A DNA stretch of 64,000 nucleotides, taken from the sequence record NC_105512.1. One strand, given 5' to 3'. Source of the DNA: Escherichia phage JLBYU43. Numbering within the stretch: the first letter of the stretch is position 1; each line of letters begins with the position of its first letter. Below, in pieces: positions 804-18,642 of this stretch. A program made the translations under genes and the position numbers. The notes beneath the pieces were generated by a model that had not been told where the DNA came from, made no database searches, and saw only the letters and a program-made list of their open reading frames with translations.

Positions 804-835
804 AATATTCTTTGTTAACTCACTTTATAAGATAT

Positions 836-864
836 ATTATACAGAGAATTAAGTGAAATAGCAA
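836..864 (-). promoter_or_regulatory. sigma70-type promoter (TTGCTA-17-TATAAT)
   Basis: Reverse complement reads TTGCTA, 17-nt spacer, TATAAT; directs minus-strand transcription into tRNA-Pro and the CAT tRNA. Confidence 0.55.
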
Positions 865-1121
865 ATGAATTTTTAATAAATTTACTTATTGCGTAGGCCA
901 CCTGGAGGGTTCAAGCCCCACGGCTGACAAAGAAGTTTGCGAGACTTCTCTTAAATGCCAGAATAGACCCGCCGATCTATCGGAACCTACATAATAAGTA
1001 AACTTTCGTTTACCTACACCTACCTGGTCGGGAGGATTTTCAGCGACTAGAACCGGCCGGAAACTCATCGCCTTGTTTACCCTGTAGTCCCACTATAAGT
1101 GACGCGACCTACAAAGATTTG

Positions 1122-1193
1122 GTGCGGTCGGAGGGAATCGAACCCTCAACTTCTGGTTGGCAACCAAAAATTATACCTTTTAACTACGAACGC
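1122..1193 (-). tRNA. tRNA-Gly (GCC)
   Basis: Acceptor GCGTTCG/CGACCGC with one mismatch, anticodon loop TTGCCAA, T-arm GAGGG-TTCGATT-CCCTC, CCA encoded at 1119-1121. Confidence 0.65.
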
Positions 1194-1409
1194 ATAATGA
1201 GTCAATCTAGGTAGGACTTGAACCTACTATCACTTGTGCGGATTTACGAGAACCATTCTTTCACTCGAATCGAACGAGCTTCTACCCTCGGCAAGCTGGT
1301 GTCCCCTCTCCACCACGCTAGAATGATAATTAATGCCTGCTCCTTTGAATCAAGAAGTCCACCCCGGACTTTGGGTCTTTGCAGTACATCACGCTGCTCT
1401 GATGTTTGG

Positions 1410-1483
1410 TACACCCACTAGGACTTGAACCTAGAACCCTCCGCTTAAGAGGCGGTAGCTCTAACCAATTGAGCTATGGATGT
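1410..1483 (-). tRNA. tRNA-Lys (CTT)
   Basis: Acceptor ACATCCA/TGGGTGT, D-arm GCTC-AATTGGTTA-GAGC, anticodon loop CTCTTAA, T-arm CTAGG-TTCAAGT-CCTAG, CCA encoded at 1407-1409. Confidence 0.6.
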
Positions 1484-1492
1484 ATAATTTGG

Positions 1493-1569
1493 CGGTACTA
1501 AGGGTAATCGAAACCCTACCTCTCCCGTGACAGGGGAGTACCATTACCAAGCCAGCCCCGATCGCATAA
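1493..1569 (-). tRNA. tRNA-Asp (GTC)-like element with degenerate D-arm
   Basis: Clean anticodon hairpin CTCCC-CTGTCAC-GGGAG and T-arm AGGGT-TTCGATT-ACCCT, 3' acceptor TAGTACC, discriminator G, encoded CCA. No canonical D-stem; only a weak 5' acceptor (GGGGCTG or GGTACTC) can be paired. Confidence 0.35.
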
Positions 1570-1574
1570 TTTAT

Positions 1575-1760
1575 TTACTCAGCTTTGAGTTTTTCGATAG
1601 CTTCCTCAACCTCTTTTAGAGCTTCACGACGCTCTACTTGACCTTGAAGTTCTTCAAGAAGTTCAGCTTTCAGAGCCTTAATAATATTACCACGAACCTT
1701 AATATTATTAATCATATTATCACGATCAGCTTCTAGTCGAGCAATTGCACGAGTTGTCAT
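1575..1760 (-). CDS. hypothetical small coiled-coil protein (61 aa)
   Basis: ORF-track ORF embedded between tRNAs; charged heptad-like sequence (ALKAELLEELQGQVERREALKEVEEAIEKLKAE). Confidence 0.4.
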   Translation of the reverse strand: MTTRAIARLEADRDNMINNIKVRGNIIKALKAELLEELQGQVERREALKEVEEAIEKLKAE

Positions 1761-1790
1761 ATCTATTTCCTCAGTTGTTAGTGAAATTGG

Positions 1791-1873
1791 CGGGCCGTGT
1801 AGGAGTTGAACCTACTTTATCCTTGCGGATACGGATTAACAGTCCGGCGCTTAAACCGTTCAGCCAACGACCC
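1791..1873 (-). tRNA. tRNA-Asn (GTT) with enlarged variable region
   Basis: Anticodon arm CGGACTGTTAATCCG matches the E. coli tRNA-Asn arm as recalled; acceptor GGGTCGT/ACGGCCC; T-arm GTAGG-TTCAACT-CCTAC; CCA at 1788-1790. About 15 nt (ATCCGCAAGGATAAA, itself a small hairpin) lie between anticodon stem and T-stem. Confidence 0.55.
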
Positions 1874-2029
1874 TAAATTTATATTGCTGACTAGGATTTT
1901 CACCTAGACGGAGTTAGCACCGTAGCGTGTAGCGGCATACCTCTCCAAACCGTGCCTCATCTTTCAATTACTGAGGCAGTGTTCCTACGCGTGCCTGAAC
2001 TGTTTTAACAATTCTTTCAGCAAATTGGA

Positions 2030-2102
2030 CGACCGCATGAGATTCGAACTCACATAAAAAGGATTTGCAATCCTTCGCCTAAGCCATTCAGCCAACAGTC
2101 GA
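2030..2102 (-). tRNA. tRNA-Cys (GCA)
   Basis: Acceptor CGACTGT/GCGGTCG with G-T wobbles, anticodon arm AAGGA-TTGCAAA-TCCTT, T-arm GTGAG-TTCGAAT-CTCAT, CCA at 2027-2029. Confidence 0.6.
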
Positions 2103-2285
2103 TTTATCTTGTTTTTCGAGATCTTCAAATTCTAGATTTATAGAATGTCCTATGGACCTAGCATAATAGCTATCTCCAGCATCAGTATCTCTTTCAATTT
2201 GGTACAACCTGTACGCAACGATCGTACCTCTTCTCCTTTTCAGGGAGATACTAATCCTTCTCAGTTAAAGTTGCATATTATCTGG

Positions 2286-2353
2286 CAGGGGTAAAGGTAT
2301 TCGAAACCTTTTCATGGGTTTTGGAGGCCCACTAGCAACCTATGCGTACCCCA
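2286..2353 (-). tRNA. tRNA-Trp (CCA), short D region
   Basis: Anticodon arm TGGGC-CTCCAAA-ACCCA and 3' end TACCCCTGCCA resemble the E. coli tRNA-Trp as recalled; T-arm AAGGT-TTCGAAT-ACCTT; only about 67 nt with a reduced D-arm. Confidence 0.5.
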
Positions 2354-2365
2354 ATTATTAATTGG

Positions 2366-2437
2366 CACACCCACGGAGAATTGAACTCCGATTCTCAGAT
2401 TGAAATCCTGATGTCCTAACCATTAGACGATAGGTGC
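2366..2437 (-). tRNA. tRNA-Glu (TTC)
   Basis: Acceptor GCACCTA/TGGGTGT, D-arm GTCT-AATGGTTA-GGAC, anticodon arm TCAGG-ATTTCAA-TCTGA, T-arm CGGAG-TTCAATT-CTCCG, CCA at 2363-2365. Confidence 0.65.
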
Positions 2438-2448
2438 ATTAATTTTGG

Positions 2449-2526
2449 TGGGGGATGGAGGACTCGAACCTCCGCGTGGTATACCCGGTCTACAGCCAGG
2501 CGCCGTCGCCACTGAGCCAATCCCCC
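2449..2526 (-). tRNA. tRNA-Tyr (GTA)
   Basis: Perfect acceptor GGGGGAT/ATCCCCC, anticodon arm CCTGG-CTGTAGA-CCGGG, 10-nt variable region, T-arm GGAGG-TTCGAGT-CCTCC, CCA at 2446-2448. Confidence 0.65.
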
Positions 2527-2650
2527 ATATTTGAATGAAAAGTAAGTCGGTTAAACTCAAAGTGGAATATTTCAGGAAATCCTGACTTTACCCCTAAAAG
2601 CAACTCGCTTAATTACTTCTCATTCAGATATGTTTCCAAAGTAGATAACT

Positions 2651-2679
2651 ATTATATCAAGTTTTATGGCACTGAGCAA
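2651..2679 (-). promoter_or_regulatory. sigma70-type promoter (TTGCTC-17-TATAAT)
   Basis: Reverse complement gives TTGCTC, 17 nt, TATAAT; the -35 element lies inside the left arm of the 13-bp inverted repeat. Confidence 0.45.
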
Positions 2680-2707
2680 GTCAGATTTTAAAGAACTTGC
2701 TCAGTGC
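2669..2707. repeat. perfect 13-bp inverted repeat (hairpin with 13-nt loop)
   Basis: GCACTGAGCAAGT at 2669-2681 and ACTTGCTCAGTGC at 2695-2707 are exact reverse complements; sits just downstream of the minus-strand CDS ending at 2716. Confidence 0.6.
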
Positions 2708-2715
2708 TATATCAG

Positions 2716-2991
2716 TTAATCAAATGAAGGAGTGACTTTCAAAGTGAATGGAAGTTCGAATACCTCTTCACCTTCATCAGTAACAGTGACTACTCGACCC
2801 TCTAGATTATTCATGCTGATTTCAACATCAGCCGTAGCATCAGGAGCCATACCAGCCTCAATACATTGAGCTTTGATCTCTGGAAGAAGTTCTACATTGT
2901 AGAAATAAAGCCACTCGATCTCACCTTCCCAACCACCCCAGGATTTACATACTGAGCTTTCAATACCAGTTGCTGTAACACGTTTTGACAT
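2716..2991 (-). CDS. hypothetical protein (91 aa)
   Basis: ORF-track ORF; start moved to the ATG at 2989-2991, preceded by GAGAGG RBS and the promoter at 3021-3050. Confidence 0.5.
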   Translation of the reverse strand: MSKRVTATGIESSVCKSWGGWEGEIEWLYFYNVELLPEIKAQCIEAGMAPDATADVEISMNNLEGRVVTVTDEGEEVFELPFTLKVTPSFD

Positions 2992-3020
2992 TCTGATTCC
3001 TCTCATCAATTTATATAACT

Positions 3021-3050
3021 ATTATATCAGAAATTTAAGGCAAAAGGCAA
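3021..3050 (-). promoter_or_regulatory. sigma70-type promoter (TTGCCT-18-TATAAT)
   Basis: Reverse complement: TTGCCT, TAAATTTCTGA..., TATAAT, then the conserved leader ATAAATTGATGAGAGG. Confidence 0.55.
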
Positions 3051-3080
3051 GTACATTTTTAAAAATTCTGTTTGGAGGAG

Positions 3081-3287
3081 TTAAAGACCGGATTCATCAG
3101 CCAGATCTAGACCAATAAGGGTGATTGCCATGATTGCAGCAGCCTGTTCTTTTTCACTCACATCTTTAGCAGACGCGATAATCTTTTCAAATTGTGATTT
3201 AAAATCTGCTACTTCAGCTTCTAAACCAGCTTCAGCAATAATGCCTTTCACCATAATACGCTGCGTCATAATTTCAGGATTTGCCAT
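3081..3287 (-). CDS. hypothetical protein (68 aa)
   Basis: ORF-track ORF; a 55-aa ORF (3284-3448) overlaps its start with ATG/TGA overlap. Confidence 0.45.
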   Translation of the reverse strand: MANPEIMTQRIMVKGIIAEAGLEAEVADFKSQFEKIIASAKDVSEKEQAAAIMAITLIGLDLADESGL

Positions 3288-3465
3288 TTGTTTTCTCCAG
3301 TTTCATTTTTAGTATTTTGCAAACAAAGTCAATATCTTCATCCGTGCCTAGATCTCTATCTTCAAGGGTTGCCTTGAAATTTTTTGTTAGTTCCATAAGA
3401 ATAACTTCCCTGGAACGACGTGTTGGCGGAGGTGGATGTCTATACATCTTAATTCCTTAATTTGG

Positions 3466-3537
3466 TGGGTCGGAGGAGAATCTAACTCCTACTCGTTAGC
3501 TTATGAGGCCACCGCTTTAACTTTAAGCTACCGACCC
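3466..3537 (-). tRNA. tRNA with CAT anticodon (Met, fMet or Ile2)
   Basis: Perfect acceptor GGGTCGG/CCGACCC, anticodon loop CTCATAA on an imperfect stem, T-arm AGGAG-TTAGATT-CTCCT, CCA at 3463-3465. Confidence 0.55.
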
Positions 3538-3546
3538 TATGTTTGG

Positions 3547-3632
3547 AGGAAGAAGTGGGAATCGAACCCACAAGGCTATATTTCAAACTGACAGATTAGC
3601 AATCTGCTGCAATACCGTTATGCTATTCTTCC
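3547..3632 (-). tRNA. tRNA-Ser (GCT), type II
   Basis: Perfect acceptor GGAAGAA/TTCTTCC, anticodon arm GCAGA-TTGCTAA-TCTGT, long variable arm, T-arm GTGGG-TTCGATT-CCCAC, CCA at 3544-3546. Confidence 0.6.
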
Positions 3633-3647
3633 GAATTTATAAGATAT

Positions 3648-3676
3648 ATTATATTAGAAATTTAGCTTCATAGCAA
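3648..3676 (-). promoter_or_regulatory. sigma70-type promoter (TTGCTA-17-TATAAT)
   Basis: Reverse complement: TTGCTA, 17 nt, TATAAT; overlaps the 3' end of CDS 3654-4172 and precedes the Ser and CAT tRNAs. Confidence 0.55.
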
Positions 3677-4172
3677 GAAAATTTTTCAAGTTTTCGGTAG
3701 ACATCTCATCCACATCTACAGGAGAAACAAATCCATTTAATTGTTTAGCAAATTTTTCACCTGCAGGATCATTATCCCCAACAGCTACCAATTTAAAAGG
3801 TAGTAATTTCAATTGCTTTAACAACGCTTTTCCAGGGGAAGAACCCAACATTGCTAGGGCTGGATAACCAGCATTATGTAATGCAACTGCCTTAAATACA
3901 GATTCAGCAATCAATACTACTTTTTCATCTCCATTGAGAGTTTCTAGTCCCCATACACACTGGGTAGTAGAATAAGTAAAATATTTAGCTTCAAAGGGAC
4001 ACTTACCATGACCTTTTGGAGCAGAAGGATTATAAGTTTGATAGCCCCTCAACATCCCAGAGAAATCATATAACGGGACTGTTAGCCATCCTTCCGGACT
4101 TAACCAGCAATGATATTTTTCTGTATCAAATCCCCTAGATAGAAGGTGCTGTGTTAGCTCATCAACACTCAT
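3654..4172 (-). CDS. hypothetical protein, possible Toprim-like fold (172 aa)
   Basis: ORF-track ORF with AGGAG RBS upstream; LVAVGDNDPAGEKFAKQL resembles a Toprim acidic motif. Weak assignment. Confidence 0.5.
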   Translation of the reverse strand: MSVDELTQHLLSRGFDTEKYHCWLSPEGWLTVPLYDFSGMLRGYQTYNPSAPKGHGKCPFEAKYFTYSTTQCVWGLETLNGDEKVVLIAESVFKAVALHNAGYPALAMLGSSPGKALLKQLKLLPFKLVAVGDNDPAGEKFAKQLNGFVSPVDVDEMSTENLKNFLAMKLNF

Positions 4173-4213
4173 ATTTGATCTCCTAGTTAGTTTTATAAAT
4201 ACATTATATAGAA

Positions 4214-4244
4214 AAGCCCGCGCTCTCGGAGGAAACGCGGGCTT
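4214..4244 (-). terminator. intrinsic terminator hairpin
   Basis: AAGCCCGCG/CGCGGGCTT 9-bp GC-rich stem with 13-nt loop, followed on the minus strand by TTCTAT; immediately 3' of CDS 4268-5284. Confidence 0.55.
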
Positions 4245-4267
4245 GTTTCGAAGATTACGTGTAACTA

Positions 4268-5284
4268 TTACTTATTACGCATATCCATAATCATCTGGCC
4301 ATCATAACCAGTACCTACAACAGTCTGAGGAACGCCACCCTGATATTTTTCAGCGCGTTTCATATCAACTTCCAGCTGCTTCCAACGAATCATTTCAGGA
4401 GTAATGGTACGTTGCAGAGCGGCGTTAGCTTCAGCTTCTTTCTTAGCTGCGTACAGTTTAGCATCTGCGTCACGTTCGTTAGCTACTGCCATATTTTCAC
4501 GAGCAGAACGATCAGCTTCAGCTTGCTTAACTTTCTGCTGTGCTTCTTGTTCAACACGAGCTAGTTCAGCTTTTGCAGCGTTAACTTGTTCTTCACGAAC
4601 TTTTGTGTTTTGTACCTGTTCCATGATTACCGGTGGCAGAGTAATATCCTGAAGGAATACTTGCTTAACGGTGTAACCATAAGGACGCGCGTACTCTTCT
4701 ACTTCTTGCTGAATAGCGGTTTGCAGTTGAGCCTGAATCTTAGCGTCGAACAGATCTTGTGCTTTTGGTACAGACTTACCAAACTCACGAATCGTAGACA
4801 GCATCTTCTCTTCAACGTACTTGTTCAGAGCTTGATCCTGAGTACCTGCGTTAATACGGTTAATCGGTGCCTTAGAACCATCAAACTGCAACATAACAGT
4901 CAAGTCAACAGTGGATTTAAACTTATCCTGGCTAGGAACCTGAAGTTTATCTAATTTTACAGCAATATCTTTTGTACTAAAAGTATCGAAAGATGCAAAC
5001 GGGTTTACAAGATGGAAACCAGGCAATACTGGATTAGGATCTACTTTACCCAGAAATGTTTGGGTTTTAACCGTACCATCAGAAACAATAGTATATGAAT
5101 TAAAAGCTAGAATCAAGCCTGCTAAACCAACTACAGCACCAATACCCCAACGTTTAATAGTATATGAATTAAAAGCTAGAATCAAGCCTGCTAAACCAAC
5201 TACAGCACCAATACCCCAACGTTTAATAGTACGAATTACTTTCTGCTCAGAAGTCAGTTCTTTCATATTTTTAGTATTAAACAT
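4268..5284 (-). CDS. SPFH/band-7 (HflC/prohibitin-like) membrane protein with duplicated N-terminal TM segment
   Basis: N-terminal hydrophobic helix, SPFH-like core and a long coiled-coil C-terminus rich in E/A/Q/K; AAGGAAA RBS before the ATG at 5282-5284. Confidence 0.65.
   Translation of the reverse strand: MFNTKNMKELTSEQKVIRTIKRWGIGAVVGLAGLILAFNSYTIKRWGIGAVVGLAGLILAFNSYTIVSDGTVKTQTFLGKVDPNPVLPGFHLVNPFASFDTFSTKDIAVKLDKLQVPSQDKFKSTVDLTVMLQFDGSKAPINRINAGTQDQALNKYVEEKMLSTIREFGKSVPKAQDLFDAKIQAQLQTAIQQEVEEYARPYGYTVKQVFLQDITLPPVIMEQVQNTKVREEQVNAAKAELARVEQEAQQKVKQAEADRSARENMAVANERDADAKLYAAKKEAEANAALQRTITPEMIRWKQLEVDMKRAEKYQGGVPQTVVGTGYDGQMIMDMRNK
5092..5229. repeat. perfect direct tandem duplication, 2 x 69 bp, in-frame within CDS 4268-5284
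   Basis: 5092-5160 and 5161-5229 are identical (TATATGAATTAAAAGCTAGAATCAAGCCTGCTAAACCAACTACAGCACCAATACCCCAACGTTTAATAG); encodes KRWGIGAVVGLAGLILAFNSYTI twice. Confidence 0.9.
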
Positions 5285-5321
5285 ATGTTTCCTTTGTTTT
5301 AGTTACAGTTAATAAAATTGG

Positions 5322-5393
5322 CCGAGGTGACAGGATTCGAACCTGCATAAAGGAATTTAGAAGACTCCTGCCTATCCCTTAGACTACACCCCG
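5322..5393 (-). tRNA. tRNA-Arg (TCT)
   Basis: Acceptor CGGGGTG/CACCTCG, anticodon arm GGAGT-CTTCTAA-ATTCC, T-arm GCAGG-TTCGAAT-CCTGT, CCA at 5319-5321. Confidence 0.65.
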
Positions 5394-5884
5394 TTTAGGT
5401 ATTTTTAAGAACTCTCGTAAAAGTCCTTAAAGATACCCAACGGTAGGTAGGGTCAGCCCCCTCAGATTAAGCTCTGCAGCCCTTCCGTCAGACAATATCT
5501 TCCAGTTTAAGTCAAGGTGACTTTGTGGTTATGTTCTCCGTATGTGAAGAACTCGGTTAGGCTTAGGTCATGACTCCCAGCCTACTGCTGCCGCTCAACA
5601 GGAATTATCGCGAATTACCTGTACTATTGGGCACCATTAGTGACATCTCTCATGTCAGCATTTCCCACTTTGTGGATAGCTTGAAAAACTACTCCGATAT
5701 GGAGAAAGAACTTCACTATCCTAGAAATACCTTCTAAAGTTCTTCTTTAGCCTGGACATAGTTAAATCGTAATAAAACTATTCAGCAGACTAGTTGGTTA
5801 GCCTGGAACCAACTACCGCGTGGTTTAGGCAGTGCGTAACTAACCTAGGAAGCTTTTACGTTAAAAGCATCAGTTATCCAGTTC

Positions 5885-5958
5885 TTACCGACCGTAGGAT
5901 TCGAACCTACATCTTCCACCAGTTACGGCTTGATAATACCAATTATACTAGGACGGCA
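5885..5958 (-). tRNA. tRNA-like element, anticodon arm not resolvable
   Basis: Good T-arm (GTAGG-TTCGAAT-CCTAC) and D-loop-like AATTGGTA; acceptor GCCGTCC/GGTCGGT pairs with one mismatch. No 5-bp anticodon stem could be folded. Confidence 0.3.
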
Positions 5959-5995
5959 GTGTTACTACATAAGTGATTTCCACACACCACTATTA

Positions 5996-6478
5996 CTAAC
6001 CAAAGTTAGTAAATTCTTTATGTAAGGATTCTCTTAATATCTTAGAGGCCTCGAAAGCCTCTTCCGCAGTTTTAAACCCTCTTTTACTGTAATTTTTTCC
6101 TTCATGTCTTACTTGGTATCTCCAGGAAGAGCCTTCCCAACTTACTCCTTTGTACCCAGAAGTATTATTGCATTGTTGGTTTCTATTCGCATTGTTTTGC
6201 GATCTAGAGGCGTCCCTTAGATTATTTTTCCTATTATTTCTAGGATTAGTATCCTTATGATCTACTTCTTCAGGCCTATATCCATAGTACATAATAAACA
6301 ATAAGACATGCAGTTGATAGGTGTCGCCCTGAAATCCCACATCTGGGTGTGATTTCTTATTATTGGCACAACACTCTTTCAAACCTTTCTTTGTTTTCCT
6401 ATATAGTACCCCATTATCAGGATCAGCTACAAAATATTTTTCAAGTATTTCTTTAGTAGGGTATTCTTTCCTTTTCAT
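5996..6478 (-). CDS. HNH homing endonuclease with AP2-like DNA-binding domain
   Basis: HNH motifs (HHKD.N..NN..NLR) followed by SGYKGVSWEGSSWRYQVRHEGKNYSKRGFKTAEEA; paralog of CDS 46900-47409. Confidence 0.75.
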   Translation of the reverse strand: MKRKEYPTKEILEKYFVADPDNGVLYRKTKKGLKECCANNKKSHPDVGFQGDTYQLHVLLFIMYYGYRPEEVDHKDTNPRNNRKNNLRDASRSQNNANRNQQCNNTSGYKGVSWEGSSWRYQVRHEGKNYSKRGFKTAEEAFEASKILRESLHKEFTNFG

Positions 6479-6521
6479 GAAACTATTATATCAACTTTTT
6501 CGATGTTAAGCAAATCAATTT

Positions 6522-6965
6522 TTAATTAAATTCGCCAGCAACCTGAGCAGCAATGCCACCGTCGTAACGACCAGGAAACTCTTCCTTAATCGCTTTCATC
6601 AGCATACCTTTTGTAATCCCAGGATTCAACTTAACTAATTCTGCAAAGTATTTGCGAATCTCAGAATCAGATAACTGAGGCGGCAGATACTGCTGTAACC
6701 ATTTGTTCAGTATATATTCATACTGAGCAGACTGCAAGCTATAATTATCAAGGTCTTGACCGTGAAGTTTAGCTTTCGTCTGATTAATGCTTTTCAGTTG
6801 AGCTTTTAGATAAGATACAAACTGTTCAGAAGTAATGAAGTCTTTATCAACACGCTGAAGATCTCCGATTATGGTCTGGTAGCTTTTAGCTACTTCTTTA
6901 TCAGAACCATTAAACTTGGATTCCTGCAAAGCCCTACGCAAAACATCTAGAATATTCTCTTCCAT
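6522..6965 (-). CDS. hypothetical protein (147 aa)
   Basis: ORF-track ORF, protein-like composition; no confident family assignment. Confidence 0.55.
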   Translation of the reverse strand: MEENILDVLRRALQESKFNGSDKEVAKSYQTIIGDLQRVDKDFITSEQFVSYLKAQLKSINQTKAKLHGQDLDNYSLQSAQYEYILNKWLQQYLPPQLSDSEIRKYFAELVKLNPGITKGMLMKAIKEEFPGRYDGGIAAQVAGEFN

Positions 6966-7135
6966 TATTTAATTCCCAGTGCTTGGTTAAAAGATTGTTC
7001 TGTCATAACTGCTGAGACTTTGGCGAAATCAAACTTCTTAGGATTTGTAGTAATTTCAGCAACGTTAGTAGTTTTAACTGTTTTCGTAGTACGAATACCG
7101 TGAGTGTTAACACCAATAATTACTAAGGTTTTCAT
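6965..7135 (-). CDS. hypothetical small protein (56 aa)
   Basis: Start moved to the internal ATG (MKTLVIIG...) preceded by GAGAGGAAAG RBS and the promoter at 7169-7197. Confidence 0.45.
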   Translation of the reverse strand: MKTLVIIGVNTHGIRTTKTVKTTNVAEITTNPKKFDFAKVSAVMTEQSFNQALGIK

Positions 7136-7168
7136 TGTTCGCTTTCCTCTCATCAATTTATACAGTTA

Positions 7169-7197
7169 TTATACAGAATTTTAAGGCTTAAAGCAAT
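7169..7197 (-). promoter_or_regulatory. sigma70-type promoter (TTGCTT-17-TATAAT)
   Basis: Reverse complement: TTGCTT, TAAGCCTTAAAATTCTG, TATAAT, then conserved leader ATAAATTGATGAGAGG. Confidence 0.6.
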
Positions 7198-7204
7198 TGA
7201 ATTT

Positions 7205-7651
7205 TTAAATTTTCTTAGTCACAGGCTTATAGAACGTGTGGCCTTGAATTTTAGTTGTTTTCTTGAACGTTTTCGTCCAGTACGGCTTTTCTTTACCACT
7301 ATGGAAGTATAACGCTCCATATGTTGGATCATGTGGTAAATCAACGTAGTATATCACTCTAGCTACATTCTTAGCAGTTTGCCAAGCCGCATCGGTTTTA
7401 TCAACTTTTGGTCTCTTAGATACCCAAGAGAACTGGTTAGACTGATATACTACTTTACAGTAAGAATCCGGGAATGTGCCAGAGTTAACACGGTTTTTAG
7501 TGACCTGTGCAACTGCAACCATTCCCTTCGTGCCCTCACCTCGGCTCTCAAAATAGACATTTTTTGCAATGCAATCAATCTGTTTAGCGTCGTAGGTAGC
7601 ATGACTCTGAAAGCTAAAGGTTAGGGCAGCCATTAGTAAGACTGCCTTCAT
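7205..7651 (-). CDS. secreted cell-wall hydrolase, SleB/CwlJ-like
   Basis: N-terminal signal peptide (MKAVLLMAALTFSFQSHA) then motifs typical of Hydrolase_2 family (NVYFESRGEG, AVAQVTKNRV). Confidence 0.55.
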   Translation of the reverse strand: MKAVLLMAALTFSFQSHATYDAKQIDCIAKNVYFESRGEGTKGMVAVAQVTKNRVNSGTFPDSYCKVVYQSNQFSWVSKRPKVDKTDAAWQTAKNVARVIYYVDLPHDPTYGALYFHSGKEKPYWTKTFKKTTKIQGHTFYKPVTKKI

Positions 7652-7663
7652 TCTTTTTACTCC

Positions 7664-8485
7664 TTAAAATAGATCATATTCTAATCTATTGGGATTTTCT
7701 CGGTATCCATAAGACGTAAGGGTTCCTCTCATGTACTCTGCGTCAACAGGATTAGATGTTACTAGAACCACTTTTAGTGGTCTTTGACCTAAAAATAGTA
7801 TATGATCTAATAAATCTTTTCCTTGTACCTCTGGATCCCCTAAATCTGAGTCCATAAATAAATAGGATCCTGTGAAACTAAACATATCTGATAGTTCCAG
7901 CGCACCTATAACTGTACGACAAATAATGGACATTTCAGGTAGATCTCTAACATCGTCTATTAGAATATTGGTCTGCTTCCCAATTTCTGCATTACATAAA
8001 CCATTTACTAGTTTTTCTCTTTCCCCTTTAGCTTGTTCGAAAGTGGTGAAGCCAGGAGATACGAAAAACTTTCCACCTAATGTAATGCTATACGCAAAAC
8101 CCTCGGAGAGGAGTTCTACACCTACGGTTTTATCAGTATTAATCCTATTTAACTTAAAATTTGTCTCTCTTAGATTAAGAATTCTGTTATCCCACGGTAT
8201 GGTATTTATATGGTCGATCATATCAGGTGGCTCTTCACCATAATGGAGCAACCACGCTATTCGGTGCCCATAAATAATTGTGGGTTTATTACCTAAGAGC
8301 AAGCTAACTCTGATGTACCCATTAGAGTTCTTACTACATATTTCTCTCCCAGCATATAGGGTGTGCCAAGTTTTATTCTTGTATTTATTAGGCTTATAAA
8401 ATAATTTACCTGTATAAGGATTATATTCTATAATTTCTCGAATATAATCTATATATGATAGTATTTGTTTTTGTAATTTACCCAT
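7664..8485 (-). CDS. HNH endonuclease with C-terminal domain of unknown function
   Basis: N-terminal HNH_3-like region (NGYIRVSL..HRIAWLLHYG..DHIN..DNR..NLR); the C-terminal 150 aa are unassigned. Confidence 0.65.
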   Translation of the reverse strand: MGKLQKQILSYIDYIREIIEYNPYTGKLFYKPNKYKNKTWHTLYAGREICSKNSNGYIRVSLLLGNKPTIIYGHRIAWLLHYGEEPPDMIDHINTIPWDNRILNLRETNFKLNRINTDKTVGVELLSEGFAYSITLGGKFFVSPGFTTFEQAKGEREKLVNGLCNAEIGKQTNILIDDVRDLPEMSIICRTVIGALELSDMFSFTGSYLFMDSDLGDPEVQGKDLLDHILFLGQRPLKVVLVTSNPVDAEYMRGTLTSYGYRENPNRLEYDLF

Positions 8486-8515
8486 AATAGCCTCGTCTCA
8501 TCAATTTAAAAATAT

Positions 8516-8544
8516 ATTATATAGAAAACTAAACTAATTAGCAA
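8516..8544 (-). promoter_or_regulatory. sigma70-type promoter (TTGCTA-17-TATAAT)
   Basis: Reverse complement: TTGCTA, 17 nt, TATAAT, leader AAATTGATGAGACGAGG, then ATG of CDS 7664-8485. Confidence 0.6.
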
Positions 8545-8936
8545 ATACATTTTTAAATTGAGAGACTAGTAAACCGATAAACAGCCTAGAGGCGCCACAG
8601 GCCATATCTTATGAGCCATGTACCTTTGATCTAGGGTTTGAATCATCAACGAATACTTTGCATCTTTTAGCTTTAGAAGGTTAGAAGTTTGAGTGCTTTT
8701 AACTTTTCAGCTTTCATACTTGAGCGTTGATCTTTGAAGTTGTGTTGGTACTACCAACGACGTCTTGTTTTATTTTGACAGATGCAACATCTGCCGAAAA
8801 ATAAATTAAGATAATCTCCAATAGATTATACTGTATCTAGTATGGTCAGCGGTCTTATTTAACCTCGTATTTCAACCGCTGCTGCGAGGTAAGATGCTTG
8901 GGCTTTCGTCTACCGATTTACTAGTCTTTTAAATTA

Positions 8937-9575
8937 TTACTCTACTTCGATAAAAGTAGAGGCGTTGGACTCAGACAGAACAAAGTCAACGTTGGTTGCA
9001 AAGTCCTGGTATTCTTCGTCGTGTTGCTTGATCAGCTTTTCCAGCTCCAGCGGATCGATCAGGAACGGAGTGTTCTTGAGTTCCAGCAGGTTAAGCTGCA
9101 TCTTAACTTCATCCTCGGAAGTCTTCTTGTCGCGGGTAGCCATGGTATCCTGCAAACGCTCATACTTAGCATCAAACTGAGCTTTCTGAGTGTTAAACTT
9201 AACAGTAGCAGCATGGAACTGCTTACGCATGTTAGCCAGCAACTGAGCTTTGAGTTCCATAGAACGCTTAGCTTCGATTGCTTCCGCAACAGTCATAGAG
9301 CGCGAACCGATCTCTACAACAGTTTCAGCATTGCTCTTGATCAGCGCAGCTTTCAGACGATCACGCTGGGACATCATATCCAGCAGAGACTGGAAATCAG
9401 TCTTAATACGGGTAGACAGATCGTCTACTTCGATTGCAGCGCCAACTACAACCTGGTTCTTGTCCTTACCTTCACCAACAGCGATCAAAAGCTGTTGTTC
9501 AGTAGCTTTACGGATTTTAGCTTCCAGAGACTTGATAGTTGCCAGAGCACGAGTTTTAGAGATACGAGTAGTCAT
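8937..9575 (-). CDS. hypothetical protein, host-like codon usage (212 aa)
   Basis: ORF-track ORF; codon choice (CTG, CGT, GGT) resembles highly expressed E. coli genes. Confidence 0.6.
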   Translation of the reverse strand: MTTRISKTRALATIKSLEAKIRKATEQQLLIAVGEGKDKNQVVVGAAIEVDDLSTRIKTDFQSLLDMMSQRDRLKAALIKSNAETVVEIGSRSMTVAEAIEAKRSMELKAQLLANMRKQFHAATVKFNTQKAQFDAKYERLQDTMATRDKKTSEDEVKMQLNLLELKNTPFLIDPLELEKLIKQHDEEYQDFATNVDFVLSESNASTFIEVE

Positions 9576-9628
9576 TATTTGCTTCCTTATATGAAGTTTG
9601 AGATTTGAATTTGTTTAAATTTGGTCTA

Positions 9629-9811
9629 TTACAGACCAATTGCCAGCAGAGTGCGCAGAACAGTATCGTTACTGTTATCAATTTTAGGATTAGCACGATT
9701 TAGCAGATCAAAGATTTTCTGGATACCTGATTGACGTTCAGCCATACGACGGATACCCAGATTACGAGTAGCTTTCTTACCATTTTTACGAACATTTTTA
9801 GATACTGGCAT
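9629..9811 (-). CDS. hypothetical small basic protein (60 aa)
   Basis: ORF-track ORF directly downstream of the promoter at 9852-9880 with AGGAAAACAAAT leader. Confidence 0.45.
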   Translation of the reverse strand: MPVSKNVRKNGKKATRNLGIRRMAERQSGIQKIFDLLNRANPKIDNSNDTVLRTLLAIGL

Positions 9812-9851
9812 ATTTGTTTTCCTTTTATTGTTTTCTCAAATTTATGAATAT

Positions 9852-9880
9852 ATTATACAGAATTTTGGAGCCGGAAGCAA
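9852..9880 (-). promoter_or_regulatory. sigma70-type promoter (TTGCTT-17-TATAAT)
   Basis: Reverse complement: TTGCTT, CCGGCTCCAAAATTCTG, TATAAT. Confidence 0.6.
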
Positions 9881-9881
9881 A

Positions 9882-10583
9882 TCAAATTTTCATTTTTTCG
9901 ATCATAGCTGCAACACAATAGCTCTCAACTAGGGCATCGAATGCTGGGTCGTGCTTAACCGGATAGATCCCATAACGAATGGTGTCCATCTTCTCCATTT
10001 TAGCTATTGCCCAGCTAATACCTTCGGTTTCTAGAGCTTTATAACTATAGCCAGTTTGCATCCAGAGATTACGAAGAGATCTAACATTACCCAAGTTCCA
10101 GAATTTCCACGGAACTATTTCTTCATTGGTTCCAGCATGGAAAGTGTTTGCAGAGTAGATAGTCATATCAAACTCTGGGCCATTGCCATAATACAAAGCA
10201 TTTTCGCCTAGAGCCAACTCCATAATATTTTGAGCCATAGAGAAGGCAGCATGGTTAGAGCCAAGTTTATTAGTGCAATGATGTTTACCATTTTGGAAGG
10301 CAACCAGTTTTGGATTAGGCTCATTCATAGCTTCCATAATGTGGATAGCAGACGGGCTATGTTTAGCCTGATCCATCCAGAATGCTAGAGTAGATGCTGT
10401 AACTTTGGCACCAGAATTAAGTTGATCTTGTACATCTAAAGTAACAAATACTAGATCAGGGTCTTTATCAATTCCATGCATAGCCACAAAAGCGAATGAA
10501 GGCATTGCGATATGGGTAGTACCACAATCTCCTGGAGTTCCTAGAGATTCAATATCTAGCATACCAAATGGTTTTACTTTCAT
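9882..10583 (-). CDS. DEDD-family 3'-5' exonuclease (DnaQ/RNase T-like)
   Basis: Exo I-like motif MLDIESLG near the N-terminus and Exo III-like H..AFDA near the C-terminus. Confidence 0.55.
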   Translation of the reverse strand: MKVKPFGMLDIESLGTPGDCGTTHIAMPSFAFVAMHGIDKDPDLVFVTLDVQDQLNSGAKVTASTLAFWMDQAKHSPSAIHIMEAMNEPNPKLVAFQNGKHHCTNKLGSNHAAFSMAQNIMELALGENALYYGNGPEFDMTIYSANTFHAGTNEEIVPWKFWNLGNVRSLRNLWMQTGYSYKALETEGISWAIAKMEKMDTIRYGIYPVKHDPAFDALVESYCVAAMIEKMKI

Positions 10584-10611
10584 AACTTATCCTTTATTGT
10601 GTAGAAAACTA

Positions 10612-10833
10612 TTAAAGAGCTGTCTCTTTAATAGACTCCCACTTCTTGGGGTCTTTAAAACCAGGAAGCATATCCTCACTGACATCCCAGTTCTCTTCCA
10701 TATAGAGATCATCTAAGTCTAGCTCATCCACTGCTAAATCCATTATCTCATGACTAGAAAGTCGTGTATAATCTCTAGCGGACTTATGAGTGCTAGCACG
10801 GTTAAAATCATTCTTTGCTACAAAATTACGCAT
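10612..10833 (-). CDS. hypothetical protein (73 aa)
   Basis: ORF-track ORF; acidic C-terminal half. Confidence 0.4.
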   Translation of the reverse strand: MRNFVAKNDFNRASTHKSARDYTRLSSHEIMDLAVDELDLDDLYMEENWDVSEDMLPGFKDPKKWESIKETAL

Positions 10834-10874
10834 AGTTTCTCCGATTAAGAGGGGCTTTCGCCCCTATTTATCTA

Positions 10875-11390
10875 TTACTTCGCTTTACGCTTGCGAGCTG
10901 GTTTAGCAGATTTACGAGCAGAATCACCCGTGAACTTAATGCCTACACCGTAACACAGAGCACGAACGTTATCTTTACTATACTCTACGCCAAAGATATT
11001 TGGCTTAACAGAACCAAACTGCCCGCGAGTATCACGCAATACATCTGCCGTTGGTTTACGCTTCTGGTTAACTGCCTTCTCATAGTCTTTCATAGACATA
11101 CCATTACGAGAGAACAATTCAGCCCCAGCGTTGAAGCTCAGGGAAACTGGGACAGATTTGTGGCCGTAATTTTCTACATACATAACCATTTTGTAGGATT
11201 TACGGGTGGCATTTTTAGCTTTAGGCTTCTGACGAATCGGAGCCGGATTATTCAGTGCTTGCGCAGCCTGAGCATCGGTGGGATGCTTACGCAGGTGGCG
11301 TTCCAGACGAGCCTTGCGATTAGCCTCAGTCTTCGGGAAAGTTTTAACTGCCGGAGCTGCTTGAGTTTTTGCGTTTTTCTGCTTAGCCAT
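10875..11390 (-). CDS. hypothetical lysine/arginine-rich protein (171 aa)
   Basis: ORF-track ORF with strongly basic termini; nucleic-acid binding is a guess. Confidence 0.55.
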   Translation of the reverse strand: MAKQKNAKTQAAPAVKTFPKTEANRKARLERHLRKHPTDAQAAQALNNPAPIRQKPKAKNATRKSYKMVMYVENYGHKSVPVSLSFNAGAELFSRNGMSMKDYEKAVNQKRKPTADVLRDTRGQFGSVKPNIFGVEYSKDNVRALCYGVGIKFTGDSARKSAKPARKRKAK

Positions 11391-11428
11391 TATTTGTTTT
11401 CCTTTTTGTTTATCAATTTATGAAGTAT

Positions 11429-11457
11429 ATTATACGAGAATTTGAAGCGTTTAGCAA
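11429..11457 (-). promoter_or_regulatory. sigma70-type promoter (TTGCTA-17-TATAAT)
   Basis: Reverse complement: TTGCTA, AACGCTTCAAATTCTCG, TATAAT. Confidence 0.6.
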
Positions 11458-11473
11458 ATGAATTTTTTAAAAA

Positions 11474-11752
11474 TTATCTACCAACCATCTTAGCTTGTTC
11501 GGCATCTGAGACATATTGATACGCCCCTTTATTATACGCCGGAGCAGTACACATTTTCTTACGCTCAATCTCTTCCTGAGCTTTTCTTTCACGTTCAGCT
11601 AATTCTTCATCCAGATAAACTAAACGTTGCTCTGGAGGAGGTGGAAGACGTGTTTCTGGCTCACCAATATTAGCCTTTCTTATTTGACGAGGTGATTGTG
11701 CACGTTTTCTCAATGGTTTAAATCCTAATGAATTTGAGTTATAAATTCGCAT
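11474..11752 (-). CDS. hypothetical protein (92 aa)
   Basis: ORF-track ORF with GAGGAGGG RBS before the ATG, downstream of the promoter at 11780-11808. Confidence 0.45.
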   Translation of the reverse strand: MRIYNSNSLGFKPLRKRAQSPRQIRKANIGEPETRLPPPPEQRLVYLDEELAERERKAQEEIERKKMCTAPAYNKGAYQYVSDAEQAKMVGR

Positions 11753-11779
11753 AAAGCCCTCCTCACTTTCAATACGAAT

Positions 11780-11808
11780 ATTATACTAAATTAGAGGGCT
11801 TTAAGCAA
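11780..11808 (-). promoter_or_regulatory. sigma70-type promoter (TTGCTT-17-TATAAT)
   Basis: Reverse complement: TTGCTT, AAAGCCCTCTAATTTAG, TATAAT. Confidence 0.6.
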
Positions 11809-11828
11809 GAAAATTTTTAATTTATTTA

Positions 11829-12305
11829 TCACATCTCAGCCATTTCAGCTTCAGTAATAACTGTGTTGCACAATGCATCTACAGCTTCATTACCACTAAT
11901 ACCAGAATGCCCTTTAACCTTAATAAAGGTAGGATTAGTATTATGAAAGTTGATATACTGCTGTGTTAATTTAAATGCTTCCTGCCAAAGTTCTAGATTA
12001 AGAGGAACTTCACCATCTGCTTTCTTCCAGCCTTTCCTTTGCCAAGAAAACATCCAACTTTCCATACCATTTTTGCAATAAGCAGAATCAGTATAGATAG
12101 CAATTGGTCTATTATCTTTTTTAACAGACCAACGTAGAGCTTCTACAATAGCTGTGAGTTCCATCTCATTATTTGTAGTTTTAGGATTATAACCAGATTT
12201 AGAACCTAAACGATCGTCGTTATCATCATAGACAATAAAACCCCAAGCACCTGGACCTGGGTTAGACTTACAAGCACCATCTGTGTAAATGTGGAAAACG
12301 CTCAC
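11829..12305 (-). CDS. rnhA: ribonuclease H (RNase HI)
   Basis: Protein begins ...IYTDGAC..NPGPGAWG and continues with ...AIYTDS.Y and ...KVKGHSG...NE.VD, the conserved RNase HI catalytic motifs. Confidence 0.8.
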   Translation of the reverse strand: MSVFHIYTDGACKSNPGPGAWGFIVYDDNDDRLGSKSGYNPKTTNNEMELTAIVEALRWSVKKDNRPIAIYTDSAYCKNGMESWMFSWQRKGWKKADGEVPLNLELWQEAFKLTQQYINFHNTNPTFIKVKGHSGISGNEAVDALCNTVITEAEMAEM

Positions 12306-12850
12306 TTATTAAGTTCCTCTATTGGTGGGTAATAGTTGGTATAGAAATCTTCTATAACTGCTTCGCTACCATGAAGTGTTTTTCTTAGTTCATTAGCCTT
12401 TATGACCGCACTTTCTAGGTCTAAGTAGTCAAAAACACACCCGTAAATATTTTTACCATTATTATCAATCACCTGTACTTGCCATTTCTGTAGTTGTTTG
12501 TTCCAGTGTACGCCTAGATATCCAGATTTACTCGATGCGGTACAATTTCTGTTATTAGACTGGCTTGTAGCTTCTCTTAGATTTATCCACCTATTATCTG
12601 ACCTAATTCTATTTTTGTGGTCTATTAAATCAGGTATTGATCCTGTCATGTATAGAAAGGCTAACCTATGAGCTAAATAATCTATTTTATCTATCTTAAT
12701 AGTTATATAGCCATCTTTTCTTAGGTATCCAGCGGGCGAACCTGCTTTTCCTCCCCTACCACGACTTATCTTATTAGTAAATATACCGGTATCTGGGTCA
12801 TAGATTAGTATTTCTTTTAATCTTTCTTGGCTAGGTAACTTTTTACTCAT
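12302..12850 (-). CDS. HNH homing endonuclease
   Basis: HNH motifs (HRLAFLYM..IDHKNRIRSDNRWINLR); C-terminal half closely resembles CDS 36521-37054; start and stop overlap both neighbours. Confidence 0.7.
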   Translation of the reverse strand: MSKKLPSQERLKEILIYDPDTGIFTNKISRGRGGKAGSPAGYLRKDGYITIKIDKIDYLAHRLAFLYMTGSIPDLIDHKNRIRSDNRWINLREATSQSNNRNCTASSKSGYLGVHWNKQLQKWQVQVIDNNGKNIYGCVFDYLDLESAVIKANELRKTLHGSEAVIEDFYTNYYPPIEELNK

Positions 12851-13226
12851 CTAACCATCCTATGTCTATACTAAGTAATGCTTTTATTCCTGTAATACCT
12901 GTACCATAAGTATTATATCGAATAGCACTTCTGCTCTTTACTTCAAGTATATTTTCATACTCTGTATTTTCTAGAATTTCTGTAGATATACCTAAATATC
13001 CTAATTGATCTTCCTCGTCCCAACCCATATCTTCTAGAAGATTTAGACGTAACTCTACCTTCTCATCTCCATTGCCTACAGAGTGGTAGTCTTCTAAAGT
13101 CCTGAATTTAGAAGTGATAGAGTCTAGTATTAATAATACCTGTTCCTTAGTAATAGTTTCTTTATCACTCTGCAAGTAATTGGAGTAATTCAGAAGGGCT
13201 TGTTCTAATTCAATTTCTTTACTCAT
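12843..13226 (-). CDS. hypothetical acidic protein (127 aa)
   Basis: ORF-track ORF downstream of the promoter at 13256-13285. Confidence 0.5.
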   Translation of the reverse strand: MSKEIELEQALLNYSNYLQSDKETITKEQVLLILDSITSKFRTLEDYHSVGNGDEKVELRLNLLEDMGWDEEDQLGYLGISTEILENTEYENILEVKSRSAIRYNTYGTGITGIKALLSIDIGWLDE

Positions 13227-13255
13227 TTTATTATCCTTTTGTACTTATTGAGTAT

Positions 13256-18641: not shown

Positions 18642-18642
18642 A

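What the first reader, a model, noticed from the sequence alone, without database searches (positions are those of the whole stretch)
5092..5229. Perfect 69-bp in-frame tandem duplication inside the SPFH gene
Positions 5092-5160 and 5161-5229 are identical 69-nt units, giving two copies of the 23-residue segment KRWGIGAVVGLAGLILAFNSYTI, which is the predicted membrane anchor. Zero divergence implies a very recent duplication or an assembly artefact. If real, the anchor would be doubled, changing topology or oligomerisation.
Basis: seen in the sequence. Interest (0 to 1): 0.55.

Follow-up and report, generated by a model that had tools for sequence, protein, structure and literature searches.

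The report
Private duplication of SPFH membrane anchor
One T5-like phage genome (Escherichia phage JLBYU43) carries a perfect, in-frame 69-bp tandem duplication that doubles the membrane anchor of a conserved SPFH protein; it looks like a real but ordinary replication-slippage mutation seen in this one record only, so it is a minor curiosity.

Summary
Window 5087-5231 holds two identical 69-nt units plus a 7-nt extension, inside a minus-strand gene (4268-5284, 338 aa). This gene is the SPFH/Band-7 orthologue of T5.080. The units encode KRWGIGAVVGLAGLILAFNSYTI twice, and that segment is the protein's only hydrophobic stretch. The exact protein is UGO55717.1 of Escherichia phage JLBYU43, seen on one contig. 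All 100 of 433 T5-like phage records inspected, 44 loci and 131 family proteins have a single anchor. The junction is absent from the phage, viral, metagenome and genome collections, including by a codon-degenerate pattern. Removing one unit restores an ungapped alignment with relatives. The breakpoints fall on a 7-bp direct repeat (AATAGTA) that already lies 69 bp apart in 10 of 24 single-copy relatives. That is the signature of slipped mispairing and is unlikely for an arbitrary assembly join (p about 6e-4). The gene is under strong purifying selection (omega about 0.05). The effect on the protein is not determined: either a two-helix hairpin that leaves the SPFH domain in the cytoplasm, or a first copy that stays out of the membrane. 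No reads were available. The verdict is a real feature, mechanistically ordinary, and of low interest.

The parts
4268..5284 (-). SPFH/Band-7 membrane protein gene, 338 aa. It is the orthologue of T5.080 and identical to UGO55717.1 of Escherichia phage JLBYU43.
   Evidence: ORF. Pfam PF01145 E 5.4e-18. Exact protein look-up. T5 annotation. PHROG 200 E 1e-84.
5156..5224 (-). Duplicated unit, copy 1 in gene order (codons K21-I43: KRWGIGAVVGLAGLILAFNSYTI). Hydrophobic helix 1.
5087..5155 (-). Duplicated unit, copy 2 in gene order (codons K44-I66). Hydrophobic helix 2, which is followed by the native VSDGTVKTQTF start of the SPFH domain.
5225..5231 (.). 7-bp direct repeat AATAGTA (gene strand TACTATT) at the promoter-proximal end of the array.
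   Evidence: Present at the same place in single-copy relatives.
5156..5162 (.). 7-bp direct repeat AATAGTA at the novel junction between the two units.
   Evidence: The junction pattern matches only here.
5087..5093 (.). 7-bp direct repeat AATAGTA at the distal end of the array.
4541..5062 (-). SPFH (Band 7) domain, residues 75-248.
   Evidence: Pfam. AF2 model with an alpha/beta core, pLDDT 80-93. Foldseek hits to erlin, prohibitin, HflK/C, stomatin and QmcA.
4409..4636 (-). Long C-terminal helix, residues 217-292. It corresponds to the coiled-coil wall of SPFH cages.
   Evidence: AF2 secondary structure. Alignment to QmcA residues 22-245.
5319..5393 (-). tRNA-Arg(UCU) immediately upstream. 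In T5 the RNAX - tRNA-Arg - T5.080 stretch lies downstream of promoter P16-17, so co-transcription is inferred.
   Evidence: ARAGORN. Rfam. T5 annotation.

Best explanation
This is a genuine, evolutionarily very recent tandem duplication, private to the JLBYU43 lineage or stock. It most likely arose when the nascent strand slipped during phage DNA replication, or by unequal exchange between concatemer copies, between two pre-existing 7-bp direct repeats (AATAGTA) that lie 69 bp apart in the 5' end of the SPFH gene. The product has the form DR-unit-DR-unit-DR. The spacing is a multiple of three, so the reading frame is kept and the protein gains a second copy of residues K21-I43, meaning two K/R-flanked hydrophobic helices instead of one. 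The wild-type protein is inferred to be a type-II (N-in, C-out) single-pass protein like HflC/HflK, with a periplasmic SPFH domain that assembles into a ring or cage. In the duplicated allele the more likely outcome (about 55%) is a tight helical hairpin (N-in, loop IKR out, C-in), which would leave the SPFH domain in the cytoplasm and so produce a null or altered protein. The alternative (about 30%) is that helix 1 stays out of the bilayer and helix 2 acts as the normal anchor, leaving function largely intact. The allele probably became fixed through plaque-purification bottlenecks and not through selection. Shown here: the repeat, the microhomology, the single-copy ancestral state, the uniqueness of the allele, and purifying selection on the gene. 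Inferred: the slippage mechanism, that the duplication was present in the sequenced DNA, and every consequence for topology.
For: Perfect 2 x 69 + 7 nt array. Removing one unit gives a 948-nt gene that aligns without gaps to 24 T5-like relatives, at up to 99.2% identity over the first 260 nt. TACTATT...69 bp...TACTATT is already present in 10 of 24 single-copy relatives, including the four most similar over the first 260 nt, and it is the only 7-bp direct-repeat pair with 20-150 bp spacing in the first 489 nt of the gene. The chance that an arbitrary exact duplication is extended by 7 or more matching bases is about 6e-4. All 100 inspected rows of the 433 phage records are single copy. The junction is absent from phages, viral contigs, metagenome contigs and genome contigs, and the positive control works. 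Of 134 proteins in hand, 131 have one hydrophobic segment, 2 are truncated, and only this one has two. The distance from the N-terminus to the DG[TS]V motif is 29-48 residues in the intact proteins where the motif was found and 68 here. Large conserved ORFs in the window are intact, so there is no sign of a poor assembly. Omega is 0.04-0.07, and against close relatives the unit shows only synonymous differences. The N-tail has 6 K/R (net +4), the inter-helix loop NSYTIKRW has +2, and the C-flank has 2 K/R. AF2 models two helices, 11-36 and 40-61, with a break at 37-39, followed by a standard SPFH core and a long helix. The fold matches cage-forming SPFH proteins.
Against: There is no read-level data and no independent isolate. 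The protein is on record from one contig only, and the look-up of encoding contigs has no entry for it. Sister JLBYU phages were assembled from 150-nt-class Illumina iSeq reads with Geneious and 'circularized', although T5-like genomes are linear with long terminal repeats. Manual finishing is therefore likely, and a 145-nt array cannot be spanned with anchors by a single read. Two identical copies carry no divergence information by themselves. The topology statements rest on the positive-inside rule and a crude hydrophobicity sum, and AF2 confidence in the anchor region is only about 59-75. The K+R bias across the family is moderate, 3.0 before the TM against 1.8 after it.
Confidence: 0.78

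Rival explanations
1. Assembly or finishing artefact. The de novo contig of this terminally redundant phage 'circularised', and its overlapping ends were joined without proper trimming (or the assembler mis-joined them), leaving a spurious 69-bp tandem copy. The real phage would then have the ordinary 315-aa gene.
For: The duplication exists in one record only. The copies show zero divergence. Sister phages from the same laboratory series were assembled in Geneious 8.1 from iSeq reads and 'all circularized'. Untrimmed end overlaps are a known class of error in phage genome records (general knowledge).
Against: An arbitrary join would coincide with a pre-existing 7-bp direct-repeat pair at exactly the repeat spacing only about 6e-4 of the time. 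An assembler cannot write the novel junction into a consensus unless some reads contain it. A period of 69 does not match the usual k-mer overlap lengths (my own knowledge). The site is internal to the window, not at a record end. The other large genes are intact. An in-frame result has a prior of only one in three under this model.
Confidence: 0.12
2. A real duplication that is adaptive. Doubling the anchor was selected because it re-targets the SPFH domain to the cytoplasmic face (a stomatin-like or QmcA-like orientation) or changes ring assembly, giving this phage an advantage on its isolation host, for example by escaping a host factor that senses or uses the periplasmic form.
For: The change is in-frame and keeps the whole downstream protein. 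The gene and its TM sequence are strongly constrained, so a tolerated change in this segment is notable. The SPFH superfamily naturally uses both single-pass and hairpin anchors and both orientations: the Foldseek hits include HflK/C, QmcA, stomatin and flotillin, and the differences in their topology are from my own knowledge.
Against: It does not recur in about 430 T5-like genomes or in any public collection, even though about 40% of relatives carry the perfect slippage substrate. No phenotype data exist. Fixation through plaque-purification bottlenecks explains it without selection. A strongly conserved single-anchor architecture argues that departures from it are usually deleterious.
Confidence: 0.07
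3. A minority variant or in-vitro chimera promoted to consensus. The duplication exists only in part of the lysate population, or was created by template switching at the 7-bp repeat during library PCR, and the assembler happened to choose it.
For: Microhomology-mediated template switching can also happen in vitro (general knowledge). Tandem duplications are unstable, so stocks are expected to be mixed (inference).
Against: PCR chimeras at one specific site are rare relative to coverage of tens to hundreds of fold (coverage of sister phages) and should not win a majority consensus. No data here indicate heterogeneity.
Confidence: 0.03

Closest known systems
T5.080 and its orthologues in Tequintavirus / Demerecviridae ('conserved hypothetical protein, single transmembrane domain'; variously annotated SPFH/Band 7, 'lipoprotein' or 'modulator of FtsH protease')
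   Same: Same locus (downstream of RNAX and tRNA-Arg). 86-96% nucleotide identity over the gene once one unit is removed. Identical N-terminal 60 residues in many relatives.
   Different: All orthologues are 314-315 aa with one anchor. This allele is 338 aa with two.
E. coli HflK/HflC (type-II SPFH cage around FtsH; PDB 7vhq, 7wi3, 9cz2)
   Same: Short K/R-rich N-tail, one TM, SPFH domain, long coiled-coil helix. Foldseek E 3e-12 to 1e-10. The periplasmic orientation is inferred from the charge bias.
   Different: Only about 17% identity. No NCBIfam HflK/HflC model is matched. No evidence of FtsH binding. Apparently one gene, not a K/C pair.
E. coli QmcA (SPFH-NfeD complex, PDB 8z5g)
   Same: Best sequence-level match among solved structures (E 1.6e-4, query residues 66-289). 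Same domain order.
   Different: QmcA faces the cytoplasm with an N-out anchor (my own knowledge) and works with the NfeD partner YbbJ. No NfeD gene is adjacent here: the neighbours are a Toprim-like ORF and tRNA-Arg.
Stomatin / flotillin / podocin hairpin-anchored SPFH proteins
   Same: If the two helices form a hairpin, the N-terminus and the SPFH domain would lie on the same (cytoplasmic) side, as in these proteins. Foldseek matches to stomatin reach E 3e-11.
   Different: Their anchor is one re-entrant hydrophobic segment, not two copies of a TM helix. The resemblance here is a prediction only.
Short-direct-repeat (microhomology) mediated tandem duplications and deletions, as described for E. 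coli lacI and phages T4 and T7, and in-frame internal tandem duplications such as FLT3-ITD
   Same: Head-to-tail identical copies bounded by a short direct repeat that is also at the junction. Single-copy ancestor with the repeat pair. In-frame product.
   Different: Nothing distinctive. No hairpin or palindrome that would bring the repeats together was found (z = 0.71).

Membership tests
SPFH / Band 7 superfamily (Pfam PF01145) | Significant match to the Band_7 profile above the gathering score | tested here: met
   66.1 bits against a cut-off of 23.6, E 5.4e-18, residues 75-248
SPFH / Band 7 superfamily (Pfam PF01145) | SPFH alpha/beta fold followed by a long coiled-coil helix | tested here: met
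   AF2 model with pLDDT 80-93 in the core and a helix at 217-292. Foldseek probability 1.00 to erlin, prohibitin, HflK/C, stomatin and QmcA.
SPFH / Band 7 superfamily (Pfam PF01145) | N-terminal membrane anchor | tested here: met
   One hydrophobic segment in 131 of 134 proteins in hand; it is doubled here
SPFH / Band 7 superfamily (Pfam PF01145) | Assembly into a large ring or cage oligomer | not testable with these tools
   Only monomer prediction is available
HflK/HflC-type modulators of FtsH | Match to the curated HflK or HflC family models | tested here: not met
   No NCBIfam family at E <= 0.01
HflK/HflC-type modulators of FtsH | Physical association with FtsH or an effect on FtsH substrates | not testable with these tools
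   No literature on the T5 protein was found
Bacterial lipoprotein (RefSeq and PHROG name for this family) | Signal peptide ending in a lipobox with an invariant Cys | tested here: not met
   No lipobox in the first 40 residues of any of the 134 proteins, and 127 of 134 have no Cys at all
Microhomology-mediated (slipped-mispairing) tandem duplication | Identical head-to-tail copies with the same short direct repeat at both ends and at the junction | tested here: met
   AATAGTA at 5087-5093, 5156-5162 and 5225-5231, with flanking bases that mismatch
Microhomology-mediated (slipped-mispairing) tandem duplication | Single-copy ancestral state that already carries the direct-repeat pair at the same spacing | tested here: met
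   10 of 24 relatives have TACTATT twice, 69 bp apart. The alignment is ungapped after one unit is removed.
Microhomology-mediated (slipped-mispairing) tandem duplication | Junction present in the physical DNA (reads or an amplicon) | not testable with these tools
   No reads are available, and only one record carries the allele
Known anti-phage defence or counter-defence proteins (PADLOC) | Match to a PADLOC model | tested here: not met
   0 families

The most novel reading that the evidence does not exclude
The duplication is real and functional. It converts a type-II, periplasm-facing single-pass SPFH protein into a hairpin-anchored, cytoplasm-facing one. That would be a natural one-step example of how the SPFH superfamily could switch anchor type and membrane orientation (HflK/C-like to stomatin-like or QmcA-like), retained in this phage because it helps on its host.
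Probability: 0.06. Interest if true: 0.5.

Novelty: new member of a known kind. Interest (0 to 1): 0.15.

Why it matters
It matters little as it stands. It is a strain-private allele produced by a textbook mutational mechanism, in a gene whose function in T5-like phages is unknown. It has three modest uses. First, it flags a feature of the JLBYU43 record that should be checked against reads. Second, it provides a ready-made natural pair (315-aa and 338-aa alleles) for testing how a duplicated signal-anchor is handled by the E. coli insertion machinery. Third, that same pair could show which side of the membrane this widespread phage SPFH protein works on. The family is conserved at 55-90% amino-acid identity to this protein across T5-like phages, contigs of about 175-180 kb that include phage RB43, and phages of about 90 kb, yet no function has been assigned to it.

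Tried and rejected
1. A DNA hairpin bringing the two direct repeats together. The single-stranded fold of 5080-5170 is no better than shuffles (-1.8 kcal/mol, z 0.71), and only weak inverted repeats lie nearby. Rejected.
2. Lipoprotein, as RefSeq and PHROG name the family. No lipobox or Cys is present. Rejected.
3. HflK/HflC equivalog, or the 'modulator of FtsH' annotation. There is no NCBIfam hit. The name is unsupported.
4. A defence-system component. There is no PADLOC hit.
5. Arguing that the gene is dispensable from T5 deletion mutants. The sequenced viable deletions are 30661-38625 and 29191-32442 (PMC11464382), while T5.080 lies at 39791-40738, just outside them. No such claim can be made.
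6. Looking for a paper on JLBYU43. None names it. Only sister JLBYU phages are described (PMC10373560), so the sequencing method for JLBYU43 is inferred from the shared series and the neighbouring protein accessions.
7. The look-up of encoding contigs for an independent assembly of the exact protein found nothing on record.
8. A search for the reciprocal product (the unit deleted), or for any other anchor-length variant in the family, found none.
9. Chimeric assembly of two co-infecting phages. The gene is a mosaic, L006-like at the 5' end and AZ23-like at the 3' end. However, the switch lies at about nt 300-400 of the gene, not at the duplication (nt 54-129), and the two units are identical. 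This does not explain the repeat.
10. AF2 was used only as an illustration. It gives two helices with a short break at moderate confidence and cannot decide membrane topology.

Full report
**Observation**

The reported repeat is real. Tandem Repeats Finder gives 5087-5231, period 69, 2.1 copies, 100% matches and no indels. The repeat finder gives 5087-5155 and 5156-5224 at 100% identity. A direct comparison shows 5092-5160 is identical to 5161-5229, and the period-69 identity extends over 5087-5231, which is 2 x 69 + 7 nt. It is the only long perfect tandem repeat in the window.

The repeat lies in a minus-strand ORF, 4268..5284, 338 aa. The translation reads ...VIRTI-KRWGIGAVVGLAGLILAFNSYTI-KRWGIGAVVGLAGLILAFNSYTI-VSDGTVKTQTF.... 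The protein matches Pfam Band_7/SPFH (E 5.4e-18, residues 75-248) and PHROG 200 (E 1e-84).

**Source and context**

The window is a T5-like phage (Tequintavirus, Demerecviridae). The gene matches 433 phage records, mostly Salmonella and Escherichia T5-likes. The exact 338-aa protein is UGO55717.1, 'SPFH domain-containing protein [Escherichia phage JLBYU43]'. It has been seen on one contig of 111,814 bp, and the 14 other listed members of its 249-member 90% cluster are 314-315 aa.

The T5 orthologue is T5.080 (39791-40738), annotated 'contains single transmembrane domain'. It lies downstream of promoter P16-17, the stable RNA 'RNAX' and tRNA-Arg, and upstream of a bidirectional terminator and a major nick site. 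The window has the same tRNA-Arg at 5319-5393.

No paper names JLBYU43. Sister JLBYU phages, whose protein accessions fall in the same range, were sequenced on an Illumina iSeq 100 from NEBNext Ultra II FS libraries. They were assembled de novo with Geneious 8.1, and 'all phages circularized' (PMC10373560). That JLBYU43 was handled the same way is an inference.

**Is the duplication found anywhere else?**

It is not.

- In the 40 best and 60 evenly spread rows of the 433 records, every full-length match spans 948 or 940 bp in two pieces, 69 bp short of the query. Every one-piece match stops at query positions 836-905, at or before the repeat region.
- A 43-nt junction query, designed so that only a true junction can seed megablast, found nothing among 50,697 phage records.
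- Exact junction patterns found nothing in IMG/VR, the JGI metagenomes or the GTDB genomes.
- A codon-degenerate pattern for the junction peptide NSYT[IV]KRWGIG also found nothing in all three collections, while it matched the window once at 5139-5170 as a positive control.
- Of 134 proteins in hand (the query, its listed cluster mates, and representatives down to about 55% identity), 131 have exactly one hydrophobic segment, two are N-terminally truncated, and only this protein has two. Lengths of the 131 other intact proteins are 297-329 aa.
- The distance from the start to the conserved DG[TS]V motif is 29-48 residues in the intact proteins where the motif was found and 68 here. No reciprocal deletion was seen.

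**Real event or artefact?**

Removing one unit gives a 948-nt gene that aligns without gaps to 24 T5-like relatives, at up to 99.2% identity over the first 260 nt. The array is bounded by a 7-bp direct repeat, AATAGTA, at 5087-5093, 5156-5162 (the junction) and 5225-5231, and the neighbouring bases mismatch.

The same heptamer pair (gene strand TACTATT), 69 bp apart, is present in 10 of 24 single-copy relatives, including the four most similar over the first 260 nt of the gene. It is the only 7-bp direct-repeat pair with 20-150 bp spacing in the first 489 nt of the gene. This DR-unit-DR-unit-DR structure is what slipped mispairing or unequal exchange at short direct repeats produces.

An arbitrary duplication, such as an untrimmed contig-end overlap, would show 7 or more extra matching bases only about 6e-4 of the time. 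An assembler cannot place a novel junction in a consensus unless reads contain it. The large conserved ORFs of the window are intact, for example 855, 949, 1219 and 1249 aa, so the record does not look error-prone. No DNA hairpin assists the slippage (z 0.71).

Some points argue for caution. There is only one record and no reads. The assembly of a linear, terminally redundant genome was 'circularised' and therefore probably hand-finished. The reads were probably too short to span the 145-nt array with anchors, so even the copy number (2 or more) depends on assembly. I put a real duplication in the DNA at about 85% and an artefact at about 12%.

**The gene and its constraint**

The gene is under strong purifying selection. 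Omega is 0.04-0.07 against 24 relatives. Within the duplicated unit, 15 of the 17 relatives sharing at least 88% nucleotide identity over the gene show only synonymous differences (1-5), and the other two show a single non-synonymous change.

Homologues from several phage lineages keep one K/R-flanked N-terminal TM followed by the conserved NSYT[IV]V.DGTVKTQTF motif. These are T5-likes, contigs of about 175-180 kb that include RB43, and phages of about 90 kb. The TM sequence itself is lineage-specific. None has a lipobox, so the common 'lipoprotein' label is unsupported. There is no NCBIfam HflK/HflC match and no PADLOC match.

QmcA is the best sequence-level match among solved structures (E 1.6e-4). 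An AF2 model (62-sequence alignment, mean pLDDT 77) shows a standard SPFH core and a long helix at 217-292. Its best structural matches are the cage-forming erlin1/2, prohibitin, HflK/C, stomatin and QmcA (Foldseek E 1e-14 to 1e-9).

No function has been published for the T5 protein. It lies just outside the sequenced viable T5 deletions, so dispensability cannot be claimed.

**Consequence for the protein (inference)**

The N-tail has 6 K/R (net +4) and the 20 residues after the anchor have 2 K/R. Across the family the means are 3.0 before the TM and 1.8 after it. By the positive-inside rule the normal protein is N-in/C-out, like HflC and HflK, with a periplasmic SPFH domain.

In the duplicated allele, two 15-residue hydrophobic cores (GIGAVVGLAGLILAF, Gly-rich and only moderately hydrophobic) are separated by NSYTIKRW. 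There are two possible outcomes.

- Hairpin: N-in, KR loop out, SPFH domain in the cytoplasm. This buries both helices but puts two positive charges on the wrong side.
- Helix 1 left out of the bilayer, with helix 2 as the normal anchor. This satisfies all the charges and keeps the domain periplasmic.

The K+R balance does not discriminate between them, while hydrophobic burial favours the hairpin. I estimate about 55% hairpin, about 30% helix 1 excluded, and the remainder mixed or degraded. AF2 draws two helices (11-36 and 40-61) with a break at 37-39, at pLDDT about 59-75, which is compatible with either outcome.

The allele is unique although about 40% of relatives carry the perfect slippage substrate. 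That suggests the event is rare, counter-selected in nature, or both. Fixation by plaque-purification bottlenecks is the simplest explanation for its presence in a consensus genome.

**Verdict**

The feature is most likely a genuine but mechanistically ordinary microhomology-mediated in-frame tandem duplication, private to one phage record, with an undetermined effect on a protein of unknown function. Interest is low (0.15). The most novel reading not excluded is a selected, one-step switch of SPFH anchor type and orientation, with a probability of about 6%.

Noticed in passing
window 5886-5957 (-): A tRNA-like element scores 35.5 bits against Rfam tRNA (gathering score 29) but is not called by ARAGORN. 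It lies in the stretch that corresponds to T5's 719-nt stable 'RNAX' of unknown function, between tRNA-Arg and the next ORF.
   Followed up: partly
window 5996-6478 (-): A 160-aa HNH_3 endonuclease ORF (E 1.2e-11) sits where T5 has only RNAX and promoter P16-17. It is probably a homing-endonuclease insertion into or beside the RNAX region.
   Followed up: partly
window 7664-8485 (-): A 273-aa ORF combines an HNH_3 endonuclease domain with a cREC_REC 'cyclic-phosphate processing receiver' domain (PF20274, E 1.6e-12). This is an unusual fusion inside a tRNA-rich region.
   Followed up: no
window 4268-5284 (-) compared with L006 and L001: The SPFH gene is a recombination mosaic. Gene nt 1-300 are 98-100% identical to IMG/VR loci L006 and L002, while nt 400-948 are 94-100% identical to phage AZ23 (L001). 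Each partner is only 81-93% identical over the other part.
   Followed up: partly
loci L027-L040; proteins P0040-P0134: The same SPFH protein is shared at 55-80% amino-acid identity by T5-like siphoviruses, contigs of about 175-180 kb (including RB43 and Cronobacter/Enterobacter phages), phages of about 90 kb, and Aeromonas/Morganella phages. Conservation starts exactly at the NSYT[IV]VQDG motif, whereas the N-tail and TM are lineage-specific. This suggests horizontal spread with replacement of the anchor.
   Followed up: partly
window 823-19517 (minus-strand copies) and 22409-53765 (plus-strand copies): There are dispersed repeat families of 53-62 nt with TTGCT...TATAAT cores: 11 copies of D1, plus families D2, D4, D5 and D7. 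They look like T5-type early promoters in front of many short ORFs and tRNA clusters (compare the promoters annotated in T5).
   Followed up: no
window 52603-52931, inside ORF 49477-53226 (-): Imperfect tandem repeats with periods of 21, 42, 63 and 105 nt, 62-87% matching (GCA/GCT-rich), lie near the 5' end of a 1249-aa ORF. This is possibly a tail-fibre gene with a repetitive N-terminal region.
   Followed up: no
window 3654-4268 compared with T5 37279-39791 and AZ23: The segment downstream of the SPFH gene is variable. The window goes straight to a Toprim-like ORF (3654-4172), T5 has three plus-strand ORFs (T5.077-079) there, and AZ23 has nadR and pnuC.
   Followed up: no
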